A stretch of DNA of 64,000 nt from Acidimicrobiia bacterium (GCA_038238245.1 JBBRXX010000027.1:154-64153), one strand, 5' to 3'. Counted from the stretch's first letter, positions 50,010 through 64,000 are shown. The notes: generated from the letters alone by a model not told the origin. Translations and numbers: made by a program.

Positions 50010-50138
50010 TTTGGCGTCCGGGCAATCCGAGGTCGGCGATGAAGGAAGTCCTCGCGGGCGCGCGTTGCCAGGATGGCCGGCGACGCGCAATACTCCGGCG
50101 GCGCGCTCGCGGGGGGTGGGCGCACAAGTAGGGATTGC

Positions 50139-51314
50139 ATGACTTCAGTGCCACCCGAGCTTCGTCCGATGCTGCGGTGTCCGGGTTGCGATTCGGAAAC
50201 GCCCGACCTCGCGTACTGTGTGCGCTGCGGCACGACGCTGGGTTCGGCGGATACGCGGGCGAAACGGACTGCACGACGAGAGTTCGCGGCTGCCCCGCGT
50301 GAGCGCACCTGGGCGCCGCATGTCGCGTCGACGCTGTTCCCGCAGTTGTCCGACGCCGACATGACGCACTTCACGATCCTGCTCGCGCTCATGATGGCGG
50401 TTGTCGTTGGACTGGCCATCGGCGGTCTGTATCCGCTGGCACTGACGGTCGCGACCGCGGTACTCCCGATCCTCATGGTGTTGTACCTGTACTCGATCGA
50501 CATCTACGAGCGCGAACCGGTGCGCGTCGTCGCATTCACGATGCTGTGGGGCCTGATTGTCGGCGTCGGGCTGGGCCTGTGGCTGCACAACGTCGGAGTG
50601 CCGTTCGGACCGCGTGGGCTCAACCAACTGAGCCACAGCGACGTGCTCGTGCGAGTCGTTGCGGTGCCGCTCGCCGGCGCCGCGTTGGTGACGCTCGGGC
50701 TCGTCCCGCTGCTCCGCTACAAGCGTTTCAACGACGTGCTCGACGGCACGACGTTCGGCGCCGCGTCGGCCATCACGGCGGTGTGTACGCAGACGATCGT
50801 GCAGCCGTGGTCGCTGCTCTTCGCCGGCTTCCGGCCCCCGGGCCCGACACGGACGTGGGTCGTCCAGCTGGTCGAGATCGGCGTGTTGGTGCCGCTGATC
50901 TGGGCAGGAGCGCTCGGAGCCGTCGGTGCCGCATTGTGGCTCCGTTTCCGCGCGCCGGTCCGTGATCGCGGCGCGCTCGGTCTCGTCGGCTCACCGGCGT
51001 TCGCGATGGTTGGCGCCGCCGTCGTGCTCGTGGCGGCCTACGTCGGCTGGCAGGAGCTCTCGCTCGTGGCCGGTCTCGTGTGGACCGCGTTCGTCGCCGC
51101 CGTCGCGGTGATCGTGCTCCGCATGGCCATCCACGTCGGGCTCATCGAAGAGGCCGACGAGATCGAGATCGGGCCCGACGTGCTGTGCGCGAACTGCCAC
51201 CGCGACACGCCGCTCCACACGTTCTGCGCGCGGTGCGGTGTCGCGCTCAAGGCGTTGCCGAAGGCGCGGCGTGCGCGATCCGACGGCGGCGAGCAGACCG
51301 GAGCCGGCGCGTGA
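50139..51314 (+). CDS. Zinc-ribbon-flanked PrsW-like membrane protein
   Basis: CxxC pairs at both ends; DIYEREP, FNDVLDG..FG; many TMs. Confidence 0.78.
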   Translation: MTSVPPELRPMLRCPGCDSETPDLAYCVRCGTTLGSADTRAKRTARREFAAAPRERTWAPHVASTLFPQLSDADMTHFTILLALMMAVVVGLAIGGLYPLALTVATAVLPILMVLYLYSIDIYEREPVRVVAFTMLWGLIVGVGLGLWLHNVGVPFGPRGLNQLSHSDVLVRVVAVPLAGAALVTLGLVPLLRYKRFNDVLDGTTFGAASAITAVCTQTIVQPWSLLFAGFRPPGPTRTWVVQLVEIGVLVPLIWAGALGAVGAALWLRFRAPVRDRGALGLVGSPAFAMVGAAVVLVAAYVGWQELSLVAGLVWTAFVAAVAVIVLRMAIHVGLIEEADEIEIGPDVLCANCHRDTPLHTFCARCGVALKALPKARRARSDGGEQTGAGA

Positions 51315-52114
51315 CCCAGACCGAAGTACCCGCGCCGCCGACGCCTCCGCCCCCGATCGTTCCGGAGCGGACCCATCCTCCCGGAGACACCCGTCCGCGC
51401 GTGAACCCGTTGTTGCTCTTCGTCCTGGGCGGCATCGGCGTGATGATCGTGATCGGGATCGCGAGCGCGCTGATCGCCGCGCTCGGTCCTGGATCCGCGA
51501 AGGGAGACTGTCTGGACGCGAACACGTGCGTGACCCCGGTTGCAATTCCCTTCAGCAATGGCACGCCGTCCATCGCCAACGACCTCGGGTATTCGTACCG
51601 CTACGACGCGGTGAATCTCACGCAATCGACGAAGTCCAGCGACGGCCGGGACGTCACGCTCAAGACCGATGGCGGACACTTGATCGTCCGGGTGACTGGC
51701 GCTCCGGCCTCCGACAGCACCCCTCAGAGTCTCCTGGACGCTCGCATGGACGATTTGACCTCGGAGTATGGCGAGCTGGAACAAGATCCGGGCTCGGGCA
51801 GCGACTCTGAGCACTCCGACAACTCACCGACCCACCTCGTTTCCCAGAGCATCGGGCACATTCGCGCAATTGGTGGTTCGTATCGCTCCGTGGGCTTCTC
51901 GGACGGTCCCACCGGCGACACTCCGTTCATTGCGATCTTCGCCGCGGGCAACGGGCGGGTGAACATCGTGATCTCCGTCGCCGTGATCACCGATTACTAC
52001 ACGTACAACGAGGACGCGACCGACACCTCTGAAAGTCGATGCAACGGCTGGAAATGGGTGAAGTGCGGGCGCAATACCGGAACCCTCATCTTGGACACGA
52101 TGCAATGGCCATGA
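51311..52114 (+). CDS. Membrane-anchored hypothetical protein
   Basis: GTGA overlap with previous gene; Pro-rich start, one TM, extracytoplasmic domain. Confidence 0.7.
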   Translation: MTQTEVPAPPTPPPPIVPERTHPPGDTRPRVNPLLLFVLGGIGVMIVIGIASALIAALGPGSAKGDCLDANTCVTPVAIPFSNGTPSIANDLGYSYRYDAVNLTQSTKSSDGRDVTLKTDGGHLIVRVTGAPASDSTPQSLLDARMDDLTSEYGELEQDPGSGSDSEHSDNSPTHLVSQSIGHIRAIGGSYRSVGFSDGPTGDTPFIAIFAAGNGRVNIVISVAVITDYYTYNEDATDTSESRCNGWKWVKCGRNTGTLILDTMQWP

Positions 52115-53856
52115 GTCCGGTCCGGACGTCGCGATCCGCCGTCGTCGTGGTCGGCGCTCTCGTGCTCGCTTGCTCACTTGCGGCGTGTGTCGGCGAGCGG
52201 ACCCAACGCGATTCGTCCTCGGCGAAGGTCACCGGCTCCCGCGTTATACGGGTCGGCCCGACGTCGCCGGGTGAGATGATCGACCTCCGGGTCGAGTTGC
52301 GATCGCCGCGTCCGGGCGAGCGCGACGCCTTCGCGCGAGCGGTGAACGATCCCACGTCGGCGGACTACCGCCACTACCTCACGCCCGCACAGTACGGACG
52401 CCGGTTCGGTCCCTCCGACGGCGACATCACCACGGTCGGCCGTTGGCTCACACGGAACGGGATCGCGGTCGTCGGCGGTGACTCTCAACGCACAACGCTG
52501 GCGGCGCGTGGTACCGCGGCGAGGGTTGAACGTCTTCTCGGGATCGCCCTCGATGACTACCGGTCCGCGGAATCGGCGATTCCGTTTCACCTCCACAGTG
52601 GAACCCCGCTTCTTCCAACGAGTGTCGACCACCTCGTCGAGCGGGTGACCGGGTTGGACAATGAGCCCATCCAGCAAGCGCTCGCGCCCACGACGCGCGC
52701 GGCCGCCGGGCCGGAATGTCTCACGGACGGGAGCTGCCTCGGTCCCCGTCAACTCGCGAAGGCGTTCCGTTACGCCTCACTGCACGACGGGCGCTTCAAG
52801 GGTGAGAAGCAAGAAGTCGCGATCATCATGTGGAGCACTCCCGATCCGAAGGACATCGCGCAGTGGGGGAGCGACGTCGGGGTGGACACCGATCACAAGG
52901 TCGACACCGTGCTCGTCGGCACTGATCCTCCGCCCGACAAAATTGCCGAGGACGGGCGGCTCGAGGTGACCCTCGACGTGGAATCCGTCCTCTCGGTCGC
53001 ACCCAATGCACACATCACCGTGTACGAGCAACCCGACAAGTCCTACGGCTCCTTCTTCGCCGCCCTCGACAAGCTGAAGGAGGGAACACACATCGTCAAC
53101 TTCAGCGCGGGCGGTTGCGACGACCCGGACGCGACCGACAAGGACGGGAACCTTGTCATGCCGTCTCTACACGCAGCGGCCAACCGTGCGTTCGAGAAGC
53201 TGGCGAGCGTCGGCGTCACAAACGTCTTCATCTCGAGCGGAGACTCCGGCGCGTATACGTGCTGGCAATTCCACCCGAAGGATTTCCGGCCGCTCGCGGC
53301 GTTTCCAGCCTCTGTGCCGGGGGCGATCGCGGTCGGCGGGACTTCTCTGCGTCGCGCGCAGGATGGAACCTACGTCAGCGAATCGGCGTGGGAGTTTCCG
53401 CTGATCAACGTCGGGACCGGCGGAGGAATCAATCCCATCGACGAGCGACCCGCGTGGCAGACCGGACCGGGAGTTGTTCCCGCAACCCCGAAGGACAACC
53501 GCCTGATACCCGATGTCGCAGCACCCGCGGACTCCAACACGATGTGGTACCTCGTCTTCGGGGGCAAGGCGGTGCAAGTCTCGGGCACGAGCGCATCCTC
53601 ACCCTTCTGGGCAGGACTGACCGCGCTGTACCAACAGAAGGCGGGCAACAAGCATGCCGGGCCGCTGCCGTTCTTGAACCCGATCCTCTATTCGCTGGCG
53701 GCGACCGATCAGCGCAGTCGCCTCTTCCACGACATCGTCCGAGGCAGCAACCTCCTCAACGACGCGACGCCGGGCTGGGATTACGCCACCGGCCTCGGAT
53801 CACCGATCGGTGACAAGCTCGGCGACGCGATCATCAAATACTTGAAGGCGCGCTGA
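52111..53856 (+). CDS. S53 (sedolisin) peptidase lipoprotein with pro-kumamolisin domain
   Basis: LAAC lipobox; YRHYLTPAQY..FGP; EVTLD, SGDSG, GTSASSP; GWDYATGLGSP. Confidence 0.93.
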   Translation: MSPVRTSRSAVVVVGALVLACSLAACVGERTQRDSSSAKVTGSRVIRVGPTSPGEMIDLRVELRSPRPGERDAFARAVNDPTSADYRHYLTPAQYGRRFGPSDGDITTVGRWLTRNGIAVVGGDSQRTTLAARGTAARVERLLGIALDDYRSAESAIPFHLHSGTPLLPTSVDHLVERVTGLDNEPIQQALAPTTRAAAGPECLTDGSCLGPRQLAKAFRYASLHDGRFKGEKQEVAIIMWSTPDPKDIAQWGSDVGVDTDHKVDTVLVGTDPPPDKIAEDGRLEVTLDVESVLSVAPNAHITVYEQPDKSYGSFFAALDKLKEGTHIVNFSAGGCDDPDATDKDGNLVMPSLHAAANRAFEKLASVGVTNVFISSGDSGAYTCWQFHPKDFRPLAAFPASVPGAIAVGGTSLRRAQDGTYVSESAWEFPLINVGTGGGINPIDERPAWQTGPGVVPATPKDNRLIPDVAAPADSNTMWYLVFGGKAVQVSGTSASSPFWAGLTALYQQKAGNKHAGPLPFLNPILYSLAATDQRSRLFHDIVRGSNLLNDATPGWDYATGLGSPIGDKLGDAIIKYLKAR

Positions 53857-53909
53857 GCCTCGGCCCGCGGTCTGTCGGTTGGCGTCCGGGACTCACGGTC
53901 GCGCTCTTC

Positions 53910-54398
53910 GTGCTGACCGCAGCGTGCGGTAGTGGCCACAGCGACTCCTCGTCGACGACGACCGGCCCGACCGCAGCGGGGTCGTCGACCCCGACGCAGC
54001 CGGAGACGACGACCACCGAGACCGCCGCTCCCGCGCCCGGACCGGATGACGCGCGGATAGTGGAGTTGTTCGACGGCCTCATCGGGAACCTGCGACTTCA
54101 GCCGACGACCTACTTTTCGAGCCAGCAGTCTTCGGTCGCGCAGAGTTGGTCGGCAGCGGCCCAGGATGCTCGTTCGCGCGCATCGGAGATGCAGGCGCTG
54201 GGTCTCGAGAACGGCACCGAAGTCACCGACAGTGTGGCGGATGCCATCGACGCGCTCAGCGCCTGCATCGAACTCGCGCCGACGCCGCAGGACGAATTTG
54301 AACTTCAGGTACTGCTCATCGTCTGCCCGACCTGGAACCTCGAAGTACAGATCGGTCGTCTCACCGACGCGAGAACGAACGCGCTCGAGGGGATGTAG
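53910..54398 (+). CDS. Hypothetical lipoprotein
   Basis: TAACG lipobox, Ser/Thr linker; start uncertain. Confidence 0.6.
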   Translation: MLTAACGSGHSDSSSTTTGPTAAGSSTPTQPETTTTETAAPAPGPDDARIVELFDGLIGNLRLQPTTYFSSQQSSVAQSWSAAAQDARSRASEMQALGLENGTEVTDSVADAIDALSACIELAPTPQDEFELQVLLIVCPTWNLEVQIGRLTDARTNALEGM

Positions 54399-54426
54399 CC
54401 CCGAGCGATCGCGCCCCGCAATCGCG

Positions 54427-54939
54427 TCACGTCACGGGAGTGAGATCGCCGATCAGCGTTTCGGCGTGGTCGACGGTTCGTAGTGCGGTACGCATGGCCG
54501 CCGGACAGCCGAGCTCCTGTGTGTCCGGATCGACACACACCAAGACGATCTCAACCGGTTCTCCCGACCAGACCGTCATGAGGCGGACGTACGACAAACC
54601 ATCGCCGGGGACGACGCGTTGATTCGGCATTCGCACGTCTCCCGGAGTAACGACACAGTCGACCGCCGACCCACCGGGACCGGCACACGAACGCATCGTG
54701 GGTCCTTCGAGATTCTCGGTGCGTATGAGCGCGAGAGCGAAGACATCGTGGTCGCTCGCACCGCGCACGGACACCTCGATCCAGGCGCCAGCCGGACCTT
54801 GGTACCGACCCGACGTCAGCTCGAGCTCCCCGCCGAGCGATGTCGGATCGGTGACAAGGGGATTGCAACCACTCAACACAACGGCGGCACCGAGCGCGAG
54901 CAAGAATCTCCCGGGAACGATGCGGCGGAGTACCGACAC
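54427..54939 (-). CDS. Hypothetical lipoprotein
   Basis: LSGC lipobox. Confidence 0.65.
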   Translation of the reverse strand: MSVLRRIVPGRFLLALGAAVVLSGCNPLVTDPTSLGGELELTSGRYQGPAGAWIEVSVRGASDHDVFALALIRTENLEGPTMRSCAGPGGSAVDCVVTPGDVRMPNQRVVPGDGLSYVRLMTVWSGEPVEIVLVCVDPDTQELGCPAAMRTALRTVDHAETLIGDLTPVT

Positions 54940-55014
54940 TCCCGAACGGTAACGGTGTCATGGCGCGTACGCAATGAACATCGTCGCCCGCTCTGAGCGC
55001 GGCTGCGCGGATGC

Positions 55015-55575
55015 TCAGGACGCGAGGCGGTAGCGGAGATACACGATACCGTTGTTGAACCGGCGTTCGTCGAGGAGCGCCAGTTGAGCGTGCGTGTCGC
55101 GAGGGAGCGCCGACTTCCCCGATCCGACGAGTACGGGATGGACGAGCAACTGACACTCGTCGACGAGGCCGGCCTTGAAGGCGTGCGCGGCAAGATTCGC
55201 GCCTCCGACGGTGAGATCGCTCGCCGCCGAGGCCTTCAAGCTGCGGATCGCGTCGGGGTCGAAGTTTTGCGTGAGCTGGGTCTTGGTGGTCGACGCCTCG
55301 TGCAGGGTCGTGGAATAGACAACCTTGTCCGCGCCCTGCCAGACCCGGGCGAAGTCGCCCATGAGTTCTGATTGTGCGGCCAGCGCGGGGTCGGTCTCCC
55401 AGACCGCCATCGTCTCGTACAGACGCCGGCCGTAGAGGTAGGTGTTGACCGGGCGCACGAGGTCAGAGATGAACGCGAAGAACTCGTCGGTGGGTTCGGT
55501 CCAGTCGAAGTTGCCCTGCGAGTCTTCGATGTAACCGTCGAGGGAGACGTTCGTGATGTAGATCAGCTTGGCCAT
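55015..55575 (-). CDS. DHFR-like (RibD C-terminal) protein
   Basis: SLDGYIED, GRRLYETM, PVLVGSGK. Confidence 0.9.
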   Translation of the reverse strand: MAKLIYITNVSLDGYIEDSQGNFDWTEPTDEFFAFISDLVRPVNTYLYGRRLYETMAVWETDPALAAQSELMGDFARVWQGADKVVYSTTLHEASTTKTQLTQNFDPDAIRSLKASAASDLTVGGANLAAHAFKAGLVDECQLLVHPVLVGSGKSALPRDTHAQLALLDERRFNNGIVYLRYRLAS

Positions 55576-55606
55576 GTGCTTCTCCTGCTCGCCCGGCGGG
55601 TGCGGC

Positions 55607-55978
55607 TCAGCCGTCCCGCCGTTCGTCGGCAACGGGACAGATACAGAACTCGTTGTCCTCCGGGTCGATAAATACGACGTACGGGTCCTCCGGTTCGGTG
55701 CTGTCACGTACGTGGCGCGCCCCGAGTCTCCGCACCCGTTCGCATTCGCGGTCGCGATCCTCTGCCCGGCAATAGATGTCGACGTGCATCTGGTGGCGGT
55801 ATGTGACCGGATCATCTGCCACTTGCAGTGCAACCATCCCGTGGTTGCCTTGCAAGACGCGGAACTCGCCACCTTGACTGCGCGGTGCTAACCCGAGGAC
55901 TGCACACCAGAACTCCGACATTCTGTCGATGTCGGCGCAGTTGATGACCATGCTCCACTGAGGCGTTGATTCGCTCAT
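55607..55978 (-). CDS. VOC/glyoxalase-like protein
   Basis: FWCAVLG, HVDI, DPEDNEFC. Confidence 0.88.
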   Translation of the reverse strand: MSESTPQWSMVINCADIDRMSEFWCAVLGLAPRSQGGEFRVLQGNHGMVALQVADDPVTYRHQMHVDIYCRAEDRDRECERVRRLGARHVRDSTEPEDPYVVFIDPEDNEFCICPVADERRDG

Positions 55979-56062
55979 AGCTCTCCTCTCTCAGTTCTTC
56001 GGGCGTGTTCGTCAGTCGACGGAGAGATGTACACGCATCCGATCACGTCGGCGACACGCAGC

Positions 56063-56076
56063 GCACAGATTGCCCG
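56063..56076 (-). repeat. Isolated right arm of the hairpin-site family
   Basis: gcacagattgcccg, identical to 62359-62372. Confidence 0.65.
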
Positions 56077-56082
56077 CTGCAG

Positions 56083-56400
56083 CTAGACAGCCGCCATCAG
56101 GTCATCCCACGAAGCGTTGCCGGCGATCTTTGTGAGTCTTTCGACTGCGTCCCCGCCCAAGGCATCGAGGGCGGCGCGGCGCGCACGCGCGATGTCGGCC
56201 TCTTCGCTTCCCGGAGTGACGATGTGGAGGTACCCGCGCGCAACGTCGGCGCCCGCAAGCAGGCGCAAAGTGCTCTCGTGGTTACCGGAGGCCGAGTCGA
56301 GCAGCGCCCCTTGGACGAAGGTGTGCGCGAGGCCGCCGAGATCCCCAGCTGCAGCTCGTCGACAAGGTCGCCACGATCAACGACGTGGTGCGCAGGTCTT
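56083..56400 (-). pseudogene. 3' fragment of a helical (TPR-like) protein
   Basis: ..GSEEADIARARRAALDALG..ASWDDLMAAV* with no proper 5' end. Confidence 0.4.
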
Positions 56401-56406
56401 CGTGAC

Positions 56407-57116
56407 TCAGCCGGTGTCCCGCGCACTTGACGGCGGCGGTTCGTCGAACTCGTCGTGCCGGCGGAACCAGAACGAGTTTGGCGCCTGCGGCCAGCCCTCG
56501 GGCACGTCCTCGTCCTCGGTCTGTCCGCCGTAGGGCGTCAGGGAGGAGATGCTCCAAATGCTGCCGAGGCTCTGGACCATCGGCCCGTGTTGGAGAAAAT
56601 AGGTGCGATAGACGTCGTCGCCGTCGCGCAAGAACATGTTGAGCCCGAACCACTCGTCGACGCCGAAGTCTGCGGAGAAGCTTTCGGTGCAGATGGTGTA
56701 CCAGGGCAGGTCGGTCCAACCCATGCGCTTCGCGTACTGGCGGAGGTTCGCCTGGGGTGCCGGCGATGCCATGGCGAAGGTGATGTCGCGCGCGTGGAGG
56801 AGGCCGAGCTCGGGAATGCCGTCGGCGACGGACGAGCAGCCCGGACACCCGGCGCCGGGCCAACCGTCGACTCCCTCTTCGAAAAAGAACCGGTAGAGGA
56901 CGAGTTGGGTGCGCCCTTCGAATAGCTCCGGGAGTGACCGCTGCCCGTCGGGACCCTCGAAGCAGTAGTCATGTTCGACCCGCACCATCGGCATGCGCTT
57001 CCGGGCCGCCGCGAGCTCGAGCAGCGGCGGGCGACGGTCTCTTCGCGCTCGGTCAGCGCCGCGCGTGCCGCGTCCCACTCGGCCTGGCTGACGACGGGTG
57101 GACGGCCGAGGGTCAT
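56407..57116 (-). CDS. DUF899 family protein, frameshift near 57030
   Basis: MTLGRPPVVSQAEWDAAR in one frame; LAAARKRMPMV..GCPGCS..LTPYG in another. Confidence 0.85.
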
Positions 57117-57722
57117 CGCTCGAGTTTCTTGTTCGCGGCCGCGGCCGCGGCCGTCGCCGGCGGTCCGGTCAACACCCGCGGCGCGTACTCGAGCAACTGG
57201 GTGCGGCCGTCGAAGGTGCGGCTGCTGATCATGTCGAGCGCGACATCGGGATAGCCGTCGTAGATGCGCTCGTTGCCGGTGCTTCCGGTGATGACCGGGA
57301 AAACGACGACCCGGAACCGGTCCGCGAGACCGGCGGCGAGGAGCGAGCGGCACAACGACAGGCTGCCCATCGTGCGCATCGACGTTGACCCGTGTTCTTT
57401 CATCTTCCGCACGGTCTCGACTGCGTCGTCAGCCACGAGTTTGGCGTTCGGCCACGAGAGGGGGCTCGCGCAATGTCGACGAGAAGACGATCTTCGACAG
57501 GGCCGCGAGCTGTTCGGTGCCCGGCTCGCCCTCGTCGGCAAATCCCGACATCAGGCGGTAGGTGTGTGCCCCCATCAAGACCGTGTACTCGCCCTCGGGT
57601 TGCTCGCCGAGCCACGCGAGGTACTCGGGTCCCTCCAACCCCCACCAACCGGGCCAGCCCTCGCCCGCCCCATACCCGTCGAGCGTCGTGATGAAGTCGA
57701 TGAGCAGTTCCGGCATCGTCAT
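57113..57722 (-). CDS. DHFR-like protein, frameshift near 57465
   Basis: FITTLDGYG..KIVFSSTL, then PLSWPNAKLV..GSLSLCRSLL..FPVITG. Confidence 0.85.
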
Positions 57723-57783
57723 CCCCTGTTCCTCGTCCGAGGTCAGTCACTGGCATTATGACGCGACGGAAGGAGCGGCCGCC

Positions 57784-57970
57784 GTGTCGCTTGCCGCGTG
57801 CAGAACTCCTCCGTCTCACTCGACGGATTCGGCACCGGCGAAGGTCTGAGCCACGACGATATTTCGGTCATGACGGGGAGCGGCTCCACGAGTGGCTGTT
57901 CGCTACCCGGTGGTGGGAGTTCGACGGGAGCGGCGGCAGCGACGACGTCTTCGCCCAACAGCACGACCAC
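57784..57970 (+). pseudogene. 5' fragment of a fourth DHFR-like gene
   Basis: RBS gaaggag; VQNSSVSLDGFGTGEG / FGHDGERLHEWLFATRWW in shifted frames, then truncated. Confidence 0.65.
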
Positions 57971-58075
57971 CACTATGACCTCGTGGCCATCTCGTCACCC
58001 TGCGGCGTCACGCATGTGACGTCCGCACGCCAGCACTCGCGATGAGTTTCCGAGAGGAATGGAGTCTCAAGAACC

Positions 58076-58618
58076 ATGACGACAACTGTGAAAACAACAA
58101 ACCTTGGTGAAGCCGATGGGTTGCCCCCGATCGAGTGGTCCGACGTTGAAGCGCAGCTCACCGATCTCCTGACACACGACGACCCGCAATCGCCGAACCG
58201 GTCGACGTTCTGGCTGACGACCCTGAACGAAGACGGCAGCGCGCACGTGACGAGCGTCGGCGCGCTCTGGCACGCGGGTTCATGCTGGTTCCAGACCGCC
58301 GACCACACCCGCAAGGCGAAGAATCTTGCTCGCGACTCACGCTGCACGATCAGCGTCGCCACGAAAGGCTTCGACGTGATGGTCGCCGGCGAGGCCGAGC
58401 GCGTGATGGACCCGAAGACCGTGGCCGAGATTGCTGCGTTGTATGCGCAGAGCGGATGGCCCGCGCAGCCCGATGATTCGGGAACCGGCATCACCGCACC
58501 GTTCAACGCGCCGACGCTCGGTCCGCCGCCGTGGTTCGTCTACGAAGTCACGCCGCGCACCGCGACCGCCGTCGGCACGACCGAGGAGATGCCGGGTTCA
58601 ACGCGCTTTCGATTCTGA
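58076..58618 (+). CDS. Pyridoxamine 5'-phosphate oxidase-like flavin/F420-binding protein
   Basis: WLTTLNEDGSAH, RKAKNLARD, TRFRF. Confidence 0.88.
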   Translation: MTTTVKTTNLGEADGLPPIEWSDVEAQLTDLLTHDDPQSPNRSTFWLTTLNEDGSAHVTSVGALWHAGSCWFQTADHTRKAKNLARDSRCTISVATKGFDVMVAGEAERVMDPKTVAEIAALYAQSGWPAQPDDSGTGITAPFNAPTLGPPPWFVYEVTPRTATAVGTTEEMPGSTRFRF

Positions 58619-58865
58619 TCGCAGGCTCCCTCGTGTCATCGCCGGTACCGCTGACGTCGAATCGACCGTCGCTCGACGAGAGTGCGACTGCGTGCATGGC
58701 GAACCGCAGCACGAGCGATCCCGACCAGCAAGGGTGCCCACCCACTCCGTGCTGCGCAGCGATGAACACGGTGCGCTGGTCGGACCCACACGCGCGGGTC
58801 GACCGGTGCCGCAGTGGACGCGTCCCGGCGTCACCGGGTCGGCGTAGGAGGCGTCGTCCTGGTCA

Positions 58866-59522
58866 TCACTCGTCTGCGTTCCTGGTTCGGAGCAGTACAA
58901 CGGCGACCGCGACGACCCACGCGAGATACAGAACTGGCGCGAGAATCGTGAAGACCCCGGTCTGCGAGAACGCACCCGATCGCGCCCACGACACCGTCGC
59001 GCCGAAGTGAGCAGCCGCGAATACTCCGGCGCCTCCCGCGAGCCAGCGGGGAAGCCGGGGGCTCAGCGCGATCGCAATCGCGGCGGCGACGCCGAGGATG
59101 ATCGTCAGGAGATTGGATGCGCCGAGCAGCACCACGAACAGATCCCAGAGTGTTCTCGCGGTGTCGGGCGTGTGCGAATCGGCTCGGAATGCCAACGCGG
59201 TGGCGCACGCCTGCCCAGCGATGCCGAGCGTGAGCACGGCGACAGCAGACGCGCACATCGCGGAGGACCACACGTCCCGTTCGGGTTGCTGCGGTACGGC
59301 GAGAAGGCGTCGCAATCCTGCGAAGAACAGGAGCATGAGACAAGTAGCTATTCCGTCCAGGAAGAAGAAGACGAGTACGAAGGTTCGATGATCGACCGCG
59401 TAAGCCAATACCGCTCGACCCGAGTCATCGATCGCGGGCGGTGTGCCACCGAAGAATGCGGTCGAGAGAAGTACGGCAGACACAATGCCGCTCATGCCGG
59501 TCAGGCGTCGTAAGCCGCGCAT
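58866..59522 (-). CDS. DUF4386-like membrane protein
   Basis: About 6 TMs; LPRWL motif; RBS aaggag. Confidence 0.7.
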   Translation of the reverse strand: MRGLRRLTGMSGIVSAVLLSTAFFGGTPPAIDDSGRAVLAYAVDHRTFVLVFFFLDGIATCLMLLFFAGLRRLLAVPQQPERDVWSSAMCASAVAVLTLGIAGQACATALAFRADSHTPDTARTLWDLFVVLLGASNLLTIILGVAAAIAIALSPRLPRWLAGGAGVFAAAHFGATVSWARSGAFSQTGVFTILAPVLYLAWVVAVAVVLLRTRNADE

Positions 59523-59574
59523 GCGCTTCCCCGTCTCCTTGCTCTCGCCGCCGCGGAACCCCGAAGGACCGAGC

Positions 59575-59707
59575 GCATGATGCCCGATCGGGAGCGATTA
59601 TGCGACGGCTTCGACCGGTCTTTACGCCGCCGGCTGCCACGCCTGCAACCGCCGGTGACCATCGGCGTCTTCGGCCCGCCCACCTCGGCACCCCCAGCGG
59701 CTATGGC
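59575..59707 (-). repeat. Hairpin site plus peptide-tail repeat, copy B
   Basis: About 87% identical to 60843-60941 over about 100 bp (hand alignment). Confidence 0.88.
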
Positions 59708-59739
59708 ACGGACAACCCACTTCGTGAACACTACGAACC

Positions 59740-60024
59740 GTGGCGCGTGTGGACTCGGCAGACGACACGCTCCGGCGTTTCGTCGTCCACCTCCAGACCT
59801 ACGACCCAGAGCGGCGCGAACGTCGCCCCGTCGAGGTGGCGTGCTTCGACAATGAAGCCGAAGCGATGCGATGTTTCGGCGAGTCGCACATCGCCGTGAT
59901 GTCACGCCGCGCGAGTGGAGAGTCGGACCCACGCGATCACGTCACGATGGTCGTCAAGCAACCTGGCATTGACGAACGCAATCGCCAACGCCGAATCGAA
60001 GAACGGCTACGCAGGTATCCCTAA
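59740..60024 (+). CDS. Hypothetical protein
   Basis: 94-aa ORF with protein-like composition. Confidence 0.6.
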   Translation: MARVDSADDTLRRFVVHLQTYDPERRERRPVEVACFDNEAEAMRCFGESHIAVMSRRASGESDPRDHVTMVVKQPGIDERNRQRRIEERLRRYP

Positions 60025-60036
60025 TGGCAGCACGGC

Positions 60037-60423
60037 CTATCGCGATCTGTTGTCGAGGTCGGCGACGAGCGTCTTGGGTGCCACATGCCGGTAGGCGTCT
60101 TCGATGATGGCGGCGATTTCATGCCAGTCGGCCTTGTTCGGCACGGCAGTATCGAGGAACACGCCCAGCCAACCGGAGAAGACACCGCTCGCTGAGGTCG
60201 GTGGCGCGAAGAAGCGAACGGGCTCGGCACTCACCAACTCCTCTTGCACGCCGGGAGGAGCCGGACACCACAACGAAATGCGTCCGTCGACGCTGTGATC
60301 GTCGTGGAAGTAACACAGGGGTCGCTTATCACGAACGAAGAAACACGGCTCGCCGTGGCTACTGCGCTCGTTCACCTCAGGAAGCGCGAGAGCAATCCGT
60401 CGCACGCGGTCGAGCGGTCTCAT
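60037..60423 (-). CDS. MmcQ/YjbR family protein
   Basis: IALALPEV..SHGEPCF..GWLGV..DAYRHVAP. Confidence 0.9.
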   Translation of the reverse strand: MRPLDRVRRIALALPEVNERSSHGEPCFFVRDKRPLCYFHDDHSVDGRISLWCPAPPGVQEELVSAEPVRFFAPPTSASGVFSGWLGVFLDTAVPNKADWHEIAAIIEDAYRHVAPKTLVADLDNRSR

Positions 60424-60430
60424 TCGCCCG

Positions 60431-60742
60431 TCAGCCCATCTGCATCGACTCGTAGAGCTTGACGGAACCGCCAGTACTCAGGCCGGGACATCCCTTCGCC
60501 ATCACGACCGCATCGTGAAGGCTGGCCGCCTCGATGACGGTGTAACCCGTCGCGGGGTCGGAACCGCTGCCGGGGCTCGGCGTGCCGTCCGACGTGATCG
60601 TGGCCGACGCGCCGAACGGTGAGCCCATGTCAACAACGGCATCGCCGAGTTGCCCGAACCACGCCATCCAACGGTCCATGACTTCGGGGGAAGGTTCTTC
60701 GGGCGACTCGCCTCCGTGGAACATCAGCACAAACTTCGCCAT
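60431..60742 (-). CDS. YCII-related protein
   Basis: WMAWF, TGYTVIEA, AKGCP. Confidence 0.85.
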   Translation of the reverse strand: MAKFVLMFHGGESPEEPSPEVMDRWMAWFGQLGDAVVDMGSPFGASATITSDGTPSPGSGSDPATGYTVIEAASLHDAVVMAKGCPGLSTGGSVKLYESMQMG

Positions 60743-60834
60743 CTCAGACTCCTAACAAGCCATGCGTGCTCGGCGCGACGATTCGACACCTTCGCACAAT
60801 CCCGCTCGCACGTCTTCTCCCCGTCGCTAGACCC

Positions 60835-61047
60835 GCACAGATTGCCCAATCGGGAGCGGTTATGCGACAGCTTCAACCTGTCTTACGCCGCCGGCTGCCA
60901 CGCCTGCAACCGCCAGTGATTTTCGACGTCCTCGGCCCTCCGACACTCAGCCGGTTCGGTCCGTACGCATTGACCACGGCTGAACACGCCAGTCGCATTC
61001 CTGCGACAACGGCCCGCCGACTTCTGACGCAGATCGGCAGATATGGC
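60835..61047 (-). repeat. Hairpin site plus peptide-tail repeat, copy C
   Basis: Minus strand gccatatctgccgatc...gcataaccgctcccgattgggcaatctgtgc. Confidence 0.88.
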
Positions 61048-61051
61048 GCGG

Positions 61052-61840
61052 TCAGGTCATCGCTGCCGCGAAGTGTGGACGCGACGCTTGCCACCACCCG
61101 CGTCGTCGGTCGAAGCGCGCCATGCCGCCCATCTCTGCCCACATCGCGGTGAAGTTCGGGTCGCCCGCGTCGACTCGACGCTGCACGAACTCGCCACCGT
61201 GAGCGATCGCGTTGTCAAGTGCACGGACGACCTCGGCACGTTCCTCGCGGCTGAGCCCGTAGGTGTCCGCGACCAGGCGTAATCGCGCGGGGAGGTCGTC
61301 GTCGATCCACCCGAACCGTGCGCGGTTCTCGTCGTCGTCGATCGGCACACACATGCGAGCGAAACACGCCAGGTCGTAGACCGGCCGACCCGGTGCCGCG
61401 AAGTCGAAGTCCAACAGGGCGACTGCCTCGCCGTCGCGAAAGACGACGTTCTCCAGGCACACGTCGTTGTGACAGATGACGGGTCCGCCCTCGGGATCGG
61501 CCATCTCGTCGCTCCACGTAGTGCTTGCCGACGGCGCAAAGGTGCGGGCAGCGCGATGGAAGCGGCTCATCAGTCGCGCGATTGACGCCAACGCCGCGTC
61601 GGTTCGAGCCCAATGCGGATATGGCGGCAAGGCAACATCACCGACAATGAACCGCAGCCGCTCCCTGCCGTCCTGATCGACACCAACGGGGATCGGAGCA
61701 CCGCCGAAGCCCTCGTCGGCGAGGTGACGCAGGAGCCGGTGGATCGTTTGCGTATGCGCGTTCGAGGGGCGAAGAACATGCTCGCCCACGCGGGTGACCG
61801 CTCCCGCGTTCGCGACCCCGCCCTTGAGTTCCAACTCCAT
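61052..61840 (-). CDS. Aminoglycoside phosphotransferase-family protein
   Basis: CHNDVCLENVV, LLDFDFA. Confidence 0.9.
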   Translation of the reverse strand: MELELKGGVANAGAVTRVGEHVLRPSNAHTQTIHRLLRHLADEGFGGAPIPVGVDQDGRERLRFIVGDVALPPYPHWARTDAALASIARLMSRFHRAARTFAPSASTTWSDEMADPEGGPVICHNDVCLENVVFRDGEAVALLDFDFAAPGRPVYDLACFARMCVPIDDDENRARFGWIDDDLPARLRLVADTYGLSREERAEVVRALDNAIAHGGEFVQRRVDAGDPNFTAMWAEMGGMARFDRRRGWWQASRPHFAAAMT

Positions 61841-61843
61841 CGA

Positions 61844-61896
61844 GCAAGTATCGCCGATCGACCCGTCATGCCTAGCGCCGATCGGCAGTTATGGGC
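61844..61896 (-). repeat. Hairpin site overlapping the cupin stop codon
   Basis: Minus strand cccaTAActgccgatcg...cgatcggcgatacttgc. Confidence 0.7.
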
Positions 61897-62335
61897 GATC
61901 GGGCGCGCCCATCGTTACCCCCGCGACGACTGCTGTGGAATCACCACGGTTGTGCCACCGGTGAAGGGTTCCGTTCTGAACAACGATGTCCCCTGGCTCA
62001 AGACGAACTTCACCGTCTTCGAGTTCAAGCCCCACAACGCCGGCTAGGACGATGTCGAGATCGATCGTCGGGGTCGCGTGCATGCCTGGTCGAGTCGCAT
62101 CAGCAAACTCGCTCATGCTCTCCACGACGTACCGGTCGAGGTCATCACTGTCGCCGGGCGGCAACTCGAACACGGTGAACTGGCATCCCTCGGCGAACTG
62201 CCCCCAACGATCGTCACGCGCCCACGCCAGGTGGAATACGCCACCAGTACCGAAAGGAATCGAAGGGACTTCGCCGTCGCTCGTGACGACGGACCGTCCG
62301 TCGCGGTCATGCCCAGTGACAACTCGCCGCACCAT
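61889..62335 (-). CDS. Cupin-domain protein
   Basis: RRVVTGHD..G, GMHATPTID, VVQNGTLHRWHN. Confidence 0.9.
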   Translation of the reverse strand: MVRRVVTGHDRDGRSVVTSDGEVPSIPFGTGGVFHLAWARDDRWGQFAEGCQFTVFELPPGDSDDLDRYVVESMSEFADATRPGMHATPTIDLDIVLAGVVGLELEDGEVRLEPGDIVVQNGTLHRWHNRGDSTAVVAGVTMGAPDRP

Positions 62336-62358
62336 GCGTTGCCCTTTCCAAGATGGAG

Positions 62359-62412
62359 GCACAGATTGCCCGATGCGGATCCTCGACGACGAGCCCCGAG
62401 CGGCAGTTATGC
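62359..62412 (-). repeat. 54-bp hairpin site overlapping the lipoprotein stop codon
   Basis: Minus strand gcaTAActgccg...cgggcaatctgtgc with an internal stem. Confidence 0.8.
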
Positions 62413-62997
62413 ACCTGCAGACTGTGGTGTTGAAGTTCTCGCACACGCCGAGCGGGCTAGTGCGAGGACCTTGGCGGTGTGGGCGGGAGCTGTATTCCCC
62501 GAGGCGCCGTACGCCGTCGACCAACTTGTCGAACCGACGACCTTCGTACTCCCGTACCCGATGCCGAGCCAGAACGCGGGCTCGCGCACAGGGACGACGC
62601 GTTGTCTGTCTCGGCCGAATACGACCTGCGACGTGTACGGGCGGCCGAGCCCATCTCGACCCTCAACAACCAGCATCCAGGACCCAGATCCCACGTCCCG
62701 ACTGCACAAGACTCTCGGACGCTTTTCCGCACCAGGAGCGCTGCCGGGCTCCCATTGGACCGCACCCGATATCCCCGAGCAGTGATCTAGGGACATCTCA
62801 CATAGCTGCTTCATGGCGGTGGTGGTTCGTGTCGCGGCAAGGGCGTACAGCACGTTCAGCGCGGTTCGAGCCTCGCTATCGCTGACAGGCCGGACCGTGT
62901 CATGCTTCGCCGAGCAGGAACTGCAGAGCAGCGCAAGGGCAACCGCAGCGCAGCCAACTCGCGCATACGTTCGACCGCACTGGCCCGGCACGCGCAC
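62407..62997 (-). CDS. Hypothetical lipoprotein
   Basis: ALALLCSSC signal/lipobox; start uncertain. Confidence 0.6.
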   Translation of the reverse strand: MRVPGQCGRTYARVGCAAVALALLCSSCSAKHDTVRPVSDSEARTALNVLYALAATRTTTAMKQLCEMSLDHCSGISGAVQWEPGSAPGAEKRPRVLCSRDVGSGSWMLVVEGRDGLGRPYTSQVVFGRDRQRVVPVREPAFWLGIGYGSTKVVGSTSWSTAYGASGNTAPAHTAKVLALARSACARTSTPQSAGA

Positions 62998-63119
62998 AGT
63001 TTGCCCGCTCTGGCGCTCTTAGGCGAGCTGCTACGCGGCCTCAGACCACGGCCGCAGCCGCCAGTGACTTTCGGCGTCCTCGGCCCACCCATGTGAGCAC
63101 GCAGAACGGCAGTTGTGGC
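62994..63119 (-). repeat. Hairpin site plus peptide-tail repeat, copy D
   Basis: Minus strand gccacaactgccg...cgggcaaactgtgc; shares ccgccagtga.tttcg.cgtcctcggccc with copy C. Confidence 0.8.
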
Positions 63120-63161
63120 GCGTCCCGTGCTGGCGCCGACACCGCGAGTCAGAATGACTTT

Positions 63162-63856
63162 GTGAGCGACGAGATCGAAGGTTCGGGCGAGGTCGGGCAG
63201 CTCATCGCGGCGCAGCGCGGCGCAGCGCGCGTACTACGTCCTGCGAGCTCCTGACTACGCCGACGTCACGAAACCGTCGGACCGGAAGCACCGCGGTTTG
63301 CTCGACGCCGGCGCAACCGGCCGCCTTGTTGACACGTTCGCGCCGTCGGGTGACGTCTTGGAGCTCGCGTGCGGATCTGGCGGGTTCACGCGCGAACTCG
63401 TACGTCATGCGCTTTCGCTCACTGCAGTCGATGGTTCACTGCGGATGCTCGAACTCAATCGCAGCATCGTCGGTGACCCGAGGGTCCAATACGTGTGCGC
63501 GGATCTGTCCGAGTGGCAGCCGACGCGGCAGTACGACACGGTGTTCTTTGGCTTCTGGCTCTCGCAGGTCCCGCCCTCGCACTTCGGGGCGTTCTGGTCG
63601 CTGGTCAGAGGGTGTCTGAGGCCTGGTGGACGCGCGGGCTTTGTCGATGAGGACGAGCGCGCCCGCCCGTACGAAGCGGCCCACTCCGATGCCGGAGTGC
63701 CGACGGCCCCTCAGCGACGGCACTGCCTTCGACATCGTCAAGGTTTTCTGGAACCCGGCGGACCTCGAGCAGCGATTGCAGGAGCTCGGCTGGCAGGCCG
63801 ATGTCGAGCCCGTCGGCGAGGCGTTCCTCTATGGCGTGGCACAAACGCCTGGCTGA
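63162..63856 (+). pseudogene. Class I SAM methyltransferase, disrupted
   Basis: AYYVLRAPDY, VLELACGSG, FWLSQVP, LSDGTAFDIVKVFW; 10-bp duplication at 63206-63225 and a second shift near 63710. Confidence 0.8.
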
Positions 63857-63917
63857 GAAGATCCGAAGCCCGCAGCGCCTCGCTCGCGAACAAGGCCGCG
63901 CTCGCGGTCGCGAACCC

Positions 63918-63970
63918 GAGCAGGTTGCCCGTCACCCGTCGAGTCGTATCAGTGCCCGCCGCAGTTGCTC
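63918..63970 (-). repeat. 53-bp hairpin site with covarying outer arms
   Basis: Minus strand GAGCAactgc...gggcaaccTGCTC, same geometry as GCATAactgc...gggcaatcTGTGC. Confidence 0.7.
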
Positions 63971-64000
63971 ATCAAGGTGTGCGAGTGACAGTTGATAGTT

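What the first reader, a model, noticed from the sequence alone, without database searches (positions are those of the whole stretch)
59575..63970. Candidate non-canonical gene-cassette array delimited by attC-like hairpin sites
Seen: six same-orientation intergenic sites (59575-59707, 60835-61047, 61844-61896, 62359-62412, 62994-63119, 63918-63970) plus a lone arm at 56063. On the minus strand they run NNN(T/C)AACTGCC(G)-variable spacer-(C)GGGCAA(T/C)CTGNNN, with some degenerate copies. The arms pair around an asymmetric loop (AC opposite ATC/ACC). Outer bases covary (GCATA/TGTGC versus GAGCA/TGCTC). Two genes have their TAA inside the left arm, a third stops 4 nt before it, and several starts lie just after the right arm. 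Cargo is unrelated small genes (APH, cupin, YCII, MmcQ, methyltransferase, lipoprotein). Known: integron attC sites are variable-length imperfect hairpins whose RYYYAAC box often contains the cassette stop codon, and integrons are considered rare in Actinomycetota. The right arm here is not GTTRRRY, so these are not standard attC. Inference: recombination sites of an integron-analogous capture system whose recombinase lies outside this window.
Basis: partly seen in the sequence, partly recalled or inferred. Interest (0 to 1): 0.85.

Follow-up and report, generated by a model that had tools for sequence, protein, structure and literature searches.

The report
Actinobacterial gene-module arrays, Xer-like recombinase
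The repeats are real and mark arrays of swappable single-gene modules that are tied to a small Xer-like recombinase in soil actinobacteria, a group in which classical integrons are almost unknown.

Summary
The observation largely holds. Five of the six listed sites are members of one repeat family. The sixth is a half-site fused to a gene end. The lone arm at 56063 is a real partial arm.

- **Site family.** The genome holds about 73 arms or sites. They lie in same-orientation arrays (35 of 36 neighbouring pairs) that break the assembly.
- **Site layout.** Each site is a pair of inverted, roughly 26-bp core-like sites, which I call L and R. Each has a conserved hexamer: TTGCCC in L and CGGCAG in R.
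- **Recombinase.** A 303-aa Xer-like tyrosine recombinase on contig C30 sits between two inverted L arms. Arrays read outward from it on both sides. In 23 related loci this polarity holds for 71 of 71 arms.
- **Mobility.** Modules move. The APH module is about 99% identical in three unrelated soil or permafrost metagenomes with different flanks. Its homology breaks at the R hexamer. Other modules break at the L hexamer.
- **What it is not.** It is not an integron. There is no IntI, no canonical attC boxes and no covariation support.
- **Closest analogue.** In architecture it most resembles the Acinetobacter dif-module system.

No recombination has been shown directly. I found no description of this system in eight literature searches.

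The parts
56060..56078 (+). Partial L arm (outer arm plus hexamer). It is a remnant to the left of the intact array.
   Evidence: L HMM E 0.096. The exact 10-mer lies at 56066. The surrounding ORFs at 56083-57722 are fragmented.
58850..59568 (-). Terminal gene module: a 218-aa membrane-like protein (58866-59522). The array ends at about 58850.
   Evidence: A second copy lies at the ends of C87 and C39, 95-97% identical. In that copy homology starts just outside an R arm. The window has no site on this side. No Pfam family.
59569..59707 (+). Long-form site: L arm, a loop of about 85 nt and a degenerate R arm.
   Evidence: L HMM E 6e-6. R1 E 0.022. The loop is shared with C39 and C87.
59708..60031 (.). 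Small module that ends at a bare GGCAG remnant (60027-60031).
   Evidence: 86% identical over 308 nt to G001:C3 (window 59720-60027). The homology stops at 60027.
60037..60742 (-). Two-gene module: YjbR-family gene (60037-60423) and a 103-aa ORF (60431-60742).
   Evidence: PF04237, E 6.9e-9. No family for the second ORF. No site lies between the two.
60831..61049 (+). Long-form site: L 60831-60867, loop, R 61028-61049.
   Evidence: L E 1e-7, R E 0.014.
61041..61888 (-). APH gene module (gene at 61052-61840) together with the site upstream of it.
   Evidence: PF01636, E 7.6e-15. In run X2 there are 7 differences over 861 nt (61028-61888) and the flanks are unlike the window. X3 and X12 likewise break at 61028-61032 and 61888-61890.
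61839..61899 (+). Short site with a degenerate L arm. The R hexamer ends at 61888.
   Evidence: R1 E 2.1e-9. R HMM E 5e-5.
61889..62335 (-). Cupin gene module. Its stop codon is the TTA directly after CGGCAG.
   Evidence: PF07883. Offset 0. A contig in X2 begins to match at 61884 after 76 unlike letters.
62354..62417 (+). Short site (L and R).
   Evidence: R1 E 7.9e-10.
62407..62997 (-). Gene module: 196-aa ORF with no known family.
   Evidence: One search found no family. The stop lies at offset 0 from the hexamer.
62990..63121 (+). Medium-form site (L and R).
   Evidence: L E 6.8e-5, R E 0.044.
63160..63856 (+). Methyltransferase module. The gene is inverted relative to the others and is probably frameshifted.
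   Evidence: PF13649, E 1.7e-13, on the frame 63298-63999. That frame runs past the apparent stop.
63918..63930 (+). L half-site (outer arm plus TTGCCC) fused directly to the next gene's end.
   Evidence: Three-way alignment with G003 and G016: homology starts at 63931.
63931..64000 (-). 3' end of a 203-aa gene module that runs on to C27 position 64981.
   Evidence: 95% identical over 900 nt in G003:C4, where R and L arms flank it. 88% identical in G016:C3.

Best explanation
**What the sites are.** The intergenic sites are recombination sites of a site-specific module-exchange system.
- Each site is a pair of inverted core-like sites of about 26 bp.
- On the + strand, L reads outer arm, hexamer TTGCCC, inner arm.
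- On the + strand, R reads inner arm, hexamer CGGCAG, outer arm.

**How the region is divided.** The sites cut the region into two kinds of module that alternate.
- Gene modules hold one gene, rarely two. They carry the outer arms, and the stop codon often lies inside the R outer arm.
- Loop modules are short, 7 to about 300 nt. They carry the inner arms.

**The likely enzyme.** It is a 303-aa Xer-like tyrosine recombinase. Its gene occupies a loop-type module between two inverted L arms on contig C30.

**How it works.**
- Recombination takes place between like cores in direct orientation (R with R, or L with L).
- The crossover lies in the shared hexamer.
- This would cut out or insert a gene module together with a loop module as a circle. 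Modules are thereby shuffled within arrays and exchanged between genomes.
- The two hexamer types would keep L and R from recombining with each other. That would prevent inversions and preserve the polarity of the arrays.

**Shown here:** the repeat family, its array layout and polarity, the recombinase in its flanking arms, the conserved architecture elsewhere, and module-level mosaicism with junctions at the hexamers.

**Inferred:** that this recombinase acts on these sites, the position of the crossover, the circular intermediate, and double-stranded rather than folded substrates.
For: **Arrays in this genome**
- 73 arms or sites were found. 35 of 36 neighbouring pairs less than 4 kb apart share orientation. 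The single exception is the pair that flanks the recombinase.
- 39 of 73 lie within 2 kb of a contig end, against 10.4% of the genome.
- The longest ORF lies on the expected strand in 26 of 29 inter-site intervals. One of those intervals is the recombinase itself.

**Recombinase**
- It carries PF00589 and PF02899.
- It aligns with E. coli XerD over residues 35-282.
- By my reading of that alignment, the R, K, HxxR, H and Y positions are in place.
- Inverted L arms lie at C30 48954-48991 and 49984-50019, with arrays running outward on both sides.

**Related loci**
- In 23 of 80 related loci that gave any arm hit, 46 of 46 arms left of the recombinase are '+' and 25 of 25 right of it are '-'.
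- 17 of 80 loci have at least one flanking L arm, and 5 have both.
- By eye, about 18 of the 77 loci with enough flank show clear flanking inverted repeats.
- Arm type (central TGCCCG or TCGGCG) clusters on the recombinase tree: 7 changes against a shuffled mean of 14.1, and 0 of 500 shuffles were as low. This is a quick tree, and kin share labels.

**Module mosaicism**
- APH: see the parts list.
- The 203-aa gene module is 95% identical in G003.
- C82 3082-4357 is 95% identical to a genome of another genus. Homology starts 2 nt before the L hexamer and ends just past the R hexamer.
- C82 5615 onward is 99% identical to G001. Homology starts exactly at the L hexamer.
- The L half-site at 63918-63930 ends exactly at its hexamer.

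**Synteny and conservation**
- The genes are not syntenic in five same-genus genomes.
- The hexamer is exact in 29 of 36 R arms. TGCCC is present in 30 of 36 L arms. Both counts are mine, made by eye.
Against: - **No direct recombination event was seen.** Only contigs could be laid, so no circles or deletion variants can be shown.
- **Sites are far more widespread than the recombinase.** Among 61 genomes of the family, sites were found in 44 and the recombinase in 12. So 32 genomes have sites without a detectable recombinase, and several of these are long-read assemblies.
- **An array without a recombinase nearby.** A 21-kb array of at least 17 sites in G049 has no recombinase within 90 kb.
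- **Caveats on those absences.** The genomes are incomplete. Recombinase units also tend to assemble as contigs of about 1 kb, which binning drops.
- **Junctions cannot be placed closer than the conserved hexamer and its neighbouring generic arm.**
- **One junction does not fit neatly.** The junction at the terminal module lies 4 nt outside the hexamer.
- **Detection in related loci is partial.** Only 23 of 80 were detectable with this genome's arm models.
- **The window's own array has no recombinase on its contig.**
Confidence: 0.6

Rival explanations
1. The sites are used by the host's own XerC and XerD, exactly as in Acinetobacter dif modules. The small recombinase is either cargo or only a helper.
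For: - Sites occur in 32 of 49 family genomes that lack a detectable recombinase.
- An array in G049 has no recombinase nearby.
- The outer arm plus hexamer of L (variant form) and of R resemble the XerC side and spacer of the candidate chromosomal dif at C4:150912. That motif occurs once per genome in 25 of 31 relatives.
- XerC- and XerD-like genes are present at C4:22028-22861 and C22:76528-77349.
Against: - The arm that would match the XerD side of the candidate dif, which is the best conserved part of dif in proteobacteria (Carnoy and Roten, passages read), is not present in either L or R. This is my reading.
- The perfect polarity of arrays around the recombinase (71 of 71 arms) is unexplained if it is mere cargo.
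- So is the clustering of arm type on its tree.
Confidence: 0.15
2. The elements are an insertion-sequence-like unit (inverted L arms plus the recombinase, about 1.07 kb) together with its miniature, gene-less derivatives (the L-R sites). These have inserted repeatedly between genes, and the 'cassettes' are simply the DNA between insertions.
For: - The recombinase unit is bounded by inverted repeats of about 40 nt.
- Short sites share both termini with it.
- Many metagenome contigs that hold a family member are only 1.0-1.3 kb long, close to the unit's size.
- Some genomes hold several copies.
Against: - Independent insertions would not give 71 of 71 arms polarised around the recombinase.
- They would not put junctions inside the arms at the hexamer.
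- They would not carry a gene with its specific upstream site, at about 99% identity, into different flanks.
- I saw no target-site duplication when reading the flanks of the recombinase unit or of the short sites.
- This genome has only one recombinase copy.
Confidence: 0.12
3. The repeats are passive intergenic palindromes, of the REP, terminator or RNA-stabiliser kind. Mosaicism arises by homologous recombination between them.
For: - R arms sit tightly against gene ends.
- The arms are imperfect palindromes.
Against: - No Y1 (RAYT-type) transposase scores over the family cut-off in the genome.
- There is no Rfam match.
- No terminator-like or promoter-like signal falls in the sites.
- The folds are not unusually stable.
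- Sites are clustered and co-oriented, not dispersed.
- A half-site joined to unrelated DNA exactly at the hexamer is not what homologous exchange gives.
Confidence: 0.08

Closest known systems
dif modules bounded by pdif sites in Acinetobacter plasmids
   Same: - Discrete modules are bounded by inversely oriented short sites, each built as arm, 6-bp spacer, arm.
- Two kinds of module must alternate.
- A pair of adjacent modules lying between directly oriented sites with matching spacers behaves as the excisable unit.
- Some modules hold no ORF.
- These features were read in passages of PMC13141974.
- Here gene modules and loop modules alternate, and the APH unit equals one gene module plus one loop module.
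   Different: - The system here is chromosomal and lies in Actinomycetota.
- One module type is almost always non-coding.
- There is strong gene polarity.
- The alternating sites are of two sequence types with different hexamers.
- A dedicated Xer-like recombinase gene sits inside a module.
- The sites lack an arm like the XerD side of the host's candidate dif.
Integrons (IntI, attI, attC cassette arrays), including arrays without an integrase (CALIN)
   Same: - Arrays of mostly single, unrelated accessory genes lie in one orientation and are separated by imperfect palindromic sites of variable length.
- A stop codon often lies inside the site's box.
- The tyrosine recombinase sits at the head of the array and genes read away from it.
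- Arrays without a nearby recombinase also exist.
   Different: - There is no IntI-specific domain. TIGR02249 scored 57.9 bits against a cut-off of 265, and only model positions 237-299 matched.
- The boxes are not RYYYAAC and GTTRRRY.
- Arrays lie on both sides of the recombinase.
- Junctions fall in both arms.
- In the APH case the site that travels with the gene is the one upstream of it.
- There is no evidence for a folded single strand.
- Néron et al. 2022 report no complete integron in Actinobacteria (passages read).
REP/REPIN elements with RAYT transposases
   Same: A single-copy enzyme gene is flanked by inverted copies of a short palindromic repeat that is abundant elsewhere in the genome.
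   Different: - The enzyme is a tyrosine recombinase, not a Y1 HUH transposase.
- The repeats are clustered and co-oriented and bound mobile genes.

Membership tests
Integron | Integrase of the IntI type with the IntI-specific additional domain around patch III (as stated in PMC9668308, passages read) | tested here: not met
   No genome match to TIGR02249 over its cut-off. The C30 recombinase scores 57.9 bits against 265 and matches only model positions 237-299. NF011946 gives 36 bits against 435. IntI4 aligns only with residues 222-292.
Integron | attC with RYYYAAC and GTTRRRY boxes (consensus recalled, not taken from a call) | tested here: not met
   Read from the arm consensus. The R outer arm begins (G)WTATGG after the hexamer. 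The L arm has no AAC. At best 5-6 of 7 positions match.
Integron | attC acts as a folded single strand, with structure conserved while sequence varies | tested here: inconclusive
   76% of cells pair, but there is no covariation. Fold z-scores range from -0.1 to -2.3. Arm sequence, not only structure, is conserved.
Integron | Tandem array of short ORFs in one orientation, interspersed with sites | tested here: met
   35 of 36 neighbouring sites are co-oriented. 26 of 29 intervals have the longest ORF on the expected strand.
Integron | One crossover point at the distal box, so that each ORF travels with the site downstream of it | tested here: not met
   Junctions lie at both the L and the R hexamers. 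APH shares its upstream site with the X2 contig, not its downstream one.
dif modules (pdif) | Modules bounded by inversely oriented sites built as arm, 6-bp spacer, arm, with two module kinds alternating | tested here: met
   The layout was read from 35 R and 39 L arms and from the alternation seen. That the arms are recombinase binding sites is an inference.
dif modules (pdif) | Sites are copies of the host dif, with a XerC and a XerD binding arm | tested here: not met
   The candidate dif was found. The arms resemble only its XerC side and spacer. No arm resembles the XerD side (my reading).
dif modules (pdif) | Carried on Acinetobacter Rep_3/OrfX plasmids and dependent on host XerC/XerD alone | tested here: not met
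   The arrays lie on Actinomycetota contigs of up to 960 kb. A dedicated recombinase is present. Dependence on the host enzymes cannot be tested with these tools.
REP/RAYT | Y1 HUH transposase gene flanked by inverted REPs, with REPs dispersed through the genome | tested here: not met
   PF01797 gives one hit of 21.1 bits, below the cut-off of 23. The sites are clustered.
Insertion sequence with miniature derivatives | Unit bounded by terminal inverted repeats, with target-site duplication and several near-identical copies | tested here: inconclusive
   Inverted repeats are present. The genome has one recombinase copy. I saw no duplication when reading the flanks. No systematic empty-site search was made.

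The most novel reading that the evidence does not exclude
This is a self-contained gene-capture system of soil Actinomycetota that fills the role integrons play elsewhere. A minimal Xer-like recombinase is housed in one module. It drives exchange of gene modules at two incompatible kinds of dif-like core site. Arrays grow on both sides of the recombinase, and arrays elsewhere in the chromosome are served in trans. Modules travel between genera and across soils.
Probability: 0.45. Interest if true: 0.9.

Novelty: new variant of a known kind. Interest (0 to 1): 0.8.

Why it matters
Integrons are described as nearly absent from Actinobacteria (Néron et al. 2022, passages read). How these soil bacteria assemble and trade small accessory genes is therefore an open question.

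The system found here is abundant:
- At least 7906 protein clusters at 90% identity reach E <= 1e-30 to the recombinase among 8000 candidates scored. The top 120 are 79-100% identical (the top row is the query's own protein).
- Sites occur in 44 of 61 genomes of the family.

It has a defined enzyme candidate and defined candidate crossover hexamers. That makes the question directly testable at the bench.

It would also extend the dif-module principle beyond Acinetobacter plasmids. If the small recombinase works alone on 26-bp sites, it could also be a compact recombination tool.

Tried and rejected
**Leads that went nowhere or were set aside**
- **Bare 10-mer counts.** Counting them in the window gave no significant enrichment, so I moved to arm HMMs and a covariance model.
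- **RNAalifold consensus.** It was too weak to use, so the model R1 uses a structure that I wrote myself.
- **Assembly graph.** I tried to rebuild it from exact 141-nt contig-end overlaps. This gave 40 links but none for the end of C27, so I could not find what lies beyond the window's array.
- **Shared repeat at the C27 end.** The ends of C27 and C7 share an inverted 150-nt repeat. I did not resolve it.
- **Joints in the source sample.** Joints such as 61046 to 62992 and 60864 to 61028 have only 23 letters on one side. They probably come from other sites of the family, so I did not use them.
- **Uncovered parts.** I draw no conclusion from parts of the stretch left uncovered in X2, X3 and X12.
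- **Simple scans.** The promoter and terminator scans found nothing in the sites.
- **Isolate plasmids.** The best match to the recombinase among isolate plasmids was 46.5% identical.
- **Careful tree.** The careful tree search did not finish. The quick tree was used. Two rows that I translated through breaks (L052, L074) sit on very long branches.

**Classification caveat.** Arm types A and B were assigned by short regular expressions, which can match by chance. 30 of 80 loci got no label and 4 got both, and these were left out of the count.

**Literature.**
- Eight searches found no description of these arrays or of this recombinase family as a cassette system.
- The searches cover only the held library.
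- Supplements were not consulted.

Full report
**Setting.**
- The window is contig C27, positions 154-64153, of a 5.09-Mb assembly in 178 contigs with 68% G+C.
- C27 ends 976 bases after the window.
- The closest public relatives of the recombinase described below are metagenome-assembled genomes labelled Acidimicrobiia, Acidimicrobiales, Ilumatobacteraceae and other Actinomycetota.

On the + strand the left arm contains CAGATTGCCC and the right arm CGGCAGTTAT.
- As bare 10-mers these are not significantly enriched in the window. As whole arms they are.
- I built HMMs for the left (L) and right (R) arms from the short sites. At E < 0.01 they find 40 L and 26 R arms in the genome.
- At E < 0.5 they merge into 73 arms or sites on 31 contigs.
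- Five of the six listed sites are recovered, and the arm at 56063 is a partial L arm.
- The sixth site, 63918-63970, is not a full site. A three-way alignment with two other genomes shows homology of the neighbouring gene starting at 63931. Its supposed loop and right arm are therefore coding sequence. Only an L outer arm plus hexamer remains.

**Arrays, not scatter.**
- 35 of 36 neighbouring sites less than 4 kb apart have the same orientation.
- 39 of 73 lie within 2 kb of a contig end, where 10.4% of the genome lies.
- 24 of 356 contig ends carry one.
- The arrays are thus a main cause of assembly breaks, and the window's array runs off its contig.
- In 26 of 29 inter-site intervals on 11 contigs the longest ORF lies on the strand opposite the site's + orientation. 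One of those intervals is the recombinase gene.
- R arms abut gene ends. 18 of 36 have a reverse ORF stop within 18 nt of the hexamer and 6 of 36 at offset 0. At 5000 random places the figures are 8.9% and 0.46%.
- A few single sites exist, on C12, C19, C31, C46 and others.

**Structure or sequence?**
- The arms are inverted repeats: 76% of cells pair, against 26-45% for slid partners.
- Nothing supports covariation. Shuffled partners give 75.0% paired, and 151 of 500 shuffles reach the observed score.
- RNAalifold finds six invariant pairs.
- Own partners pair only marginally better than swapped ones (p = 0.0245, 19 sites).
- The folds are not unusually stable (z -0.1 to -2.3).
- No Rfam family matches.
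- Position frequencies over 35 R and 39 L arms show conserved blocks around a hexamer. On the + strand R reads inner arm, CGGCAG, outer arm, and L reads outer arm, TTGCCC, inner arm.
- In a common orientation the two hexamers differ at their first and last letters.
- Each arm has the size and layout of a tyrosine-recombinase core site. That is my inference from the sequence.

**The recombinase.**
- The genome has no integron integrase over the family cut-off.
- Among 20 matches to the Phage_integrase family, one stands out. C30:49003-49911 is a 303-aa protein with PF00589 and PF02899. It is closest to XerD, XerC and XerA models but far below their cut-offs. It matches the integron-integrase model only at its C-terminal end.
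- It aligns with E. coli XerD over residues 35-282. By my reading of that alignment the catalytic positions are in place.
- The gene lies between two inverted L arms whose inner arms face the gene (C30 48954-48991 and 49984-50019).
- Sites to its left are '+', sites to its right are '-', and genes on both sides read outward.
- It is single-copy here.

**The same architecture elsewhere.**
- With this genome's arm HMMs, 23 of the 80 loci give hits. All 46 arms left of the recombinase are '+' and all 25 right of it are '-'.
- Flanking inverted repeats of the same kind are plain, by eye, in about 18 of the 77 loci with enough flank.
- Other loci carry a second arm type with a different central hexamer (TCGGCG in place of TGCCCG).
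- Arm type clusters on the recombinase tree: 7 changes against 14.1 expected, and 0 of 500 shuffles were as low. This is a quick tree, and relatedness alone produces some clustering.
- The protein family is very large. 7906 of 8000 scored candidates reach E <= 1e-30. The top 120 are 79-100% identical (the 100% row is the query's own protein) and are named only 'XerD' or 'tyrosine-type recombinase'. Many sit on contigs of 1.0-1.3 kb.
- No close relative is on an isolate plasmid; the best is 46.5% identical.

**Do the modules move?**
- The genes of window 50000-64000 are not syntenic in five genomes of the same genus. They occur singly at scattered places. The 20 kb upstream shows only patchy synteny.
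- There are four kinds of direct evidence:
  - **(a) APH unit.**
    - The source-like run X1 holds 96% of the stretch's sampled words. Three runs from other studies (soil, soil, permafrost) hold 11-15%.
    - Laid on the stretch, a 1313-nt contig of X2 matches 61028-61888 with 7 differences and continues unlike the window on both sides.
    - X3 and X12 break at the same places: 61028-61032, and a contig end at 61890.
    - A separate X2 contig starts to match the cupin module at 61884 after 76 unlike letters.
    - The two units therefore meet in the R hexamer at 61883-61888.
  - **(b) 203-aa gene module.** The module at the window's end is 95% identical over 900 nt in G003, where R and L arms flank it, and 88% identical in G016.
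  - **(c) C82 modules.**
    - C82 3082-4357 is 95% identical to a genome of another genus. Homology starts 2 nt before the L hexamer and ends just after the R hexamer and its generic inner arm.
    - C82 from 5615 on is 99% identical to G001, starting exactly at the L hexamer.
  - **(d) Membrane-protein module.** It has a second copy in this genome (95-97% identical). That copy shares the upstream site but has an R arm where the window has none, which marks the end of the window's array at about 58850.
- A half-site joined to unrelated sequence exactly at the hexamer (63930|63931) is hard to explain by homologous exchange.

**Mechanism proposed.**
- Gene modules carry the outer arms and loop modules carry the inner arms. 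The two kinds alternate, and the recombinase gene sits in a loop-type position.
- The APH unit equals one gene module plus one loop module between two directly oriented R cores.
- This is the logic described for Acinetobacter dif modules. [quoted passage not shown] Adjacent pairs are excised between directly oriented pdif sites with matching spacers. Some modules have no ORF (PMC13141974, abstract and passages).
- I therefore propose crossover within the shared hexamer between like cores. Two hexamer types keep L and R apart.
- A candidate chromosomal dif (C4:150912; one per genome in 25 of 31 relatives) resembles the arms only on its XerC side and spacer.

**What speaks against it.**
- No recombination event was observed.
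- Sites are far more widespread than the recombinase. They occur in 44 of 61 family genomes against 12 with the recombinase. All 12 of those also have sites.
- A 21-kb array of at least 17 co-oriented sites in a 960-kb contig has no recombinase within 90 kb.
- Incomplete genomes and the loss of 1-kb recombinase contigs from bins may explain part of this. Action in trans or by host XerC/XerD may explain the rest.

**Comparison and novelty.**
- It is not an integron. The integrase, the box consensus and the single distal crossover all fail the membership test.
- It is not a member of the dif-module family as defined either, because the host, the replicon, the XerD arm and the dedicated enzyme all differ.
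- It works like both.
- Eight literature searches found no description.
- Néron et al. 2022 report no complete integron in Actinobacteria.
- I rate it a new variant of a known kind and of high interest.

**Cargo.**
- Confirmed in the window: APH, cupin, YjbR and a methyltransferase, plus ORFs of no known family.
- In other arrays of the same genome, 5 of 10 tested proteins carry an adenylate/guanylate cyclase domain. The others include a sulfotransferase, a luciferase-like monooxygenase, a cupin and a transglutaminase-like protein.

Noticed in passing
L004:7520-8962, L004:11310-12677, L005:3041-4336, L006:3252-5225, L007:2762-3967: Five of ten array proteins tested carry an adenylate/guanylate cyclase catalytic domain, fused to alpha/beta-hydrolase or TPR parts. 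This is a striking share for cargo that is otherwise unrelated.
   Followed up: no
window 59606-59690 and 60868-60945; C87 6459-6545 and 7119-7200; C39 end: The long-form loops are themselves a repeated module of about 110 nt, 85-93% alike between sites. A second loop family of about 60 nt recurs at C5:68, C30:46030 and C30:51215.
   Followed up: partly
C82 2788-3017, C104 691-925, C7 1663-1833 (L005, L009, L020): A repeat of about 230 nt, 88-89% alike, is nested inside site loops. It may be a further small mobile element.
   Followed up: no
G000:C4:150912-150939: A candidate chromosomal dif site: 11-6-11 layout, one copy here and one per genome in 25 of 31 relatives.
   Followed up: partly
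window 56083-57722: A run of fragmented reverse-strand ORFs whose DNA matches one continuous 1289-nt stretch in a same-genus genome at 80%. They look like decayed former modules beside the partial L arm at 56060.
   Followed up: partly
C37:1222-1536, C37:44459-44932, C48:13677-14216, C7:12219-12724: Other tyrosine recombinase genes or fragments, unrelated to the C30 one by tblastn, lie within a few kb of other site clusters.
   Followed up: no
C27 64973-65121 and C7 1-149: The last 150 nt of the window's contig recur inverted, at 97% identity, at the start of contig C7. Both contigs end in this repeat.
   Followed up: no
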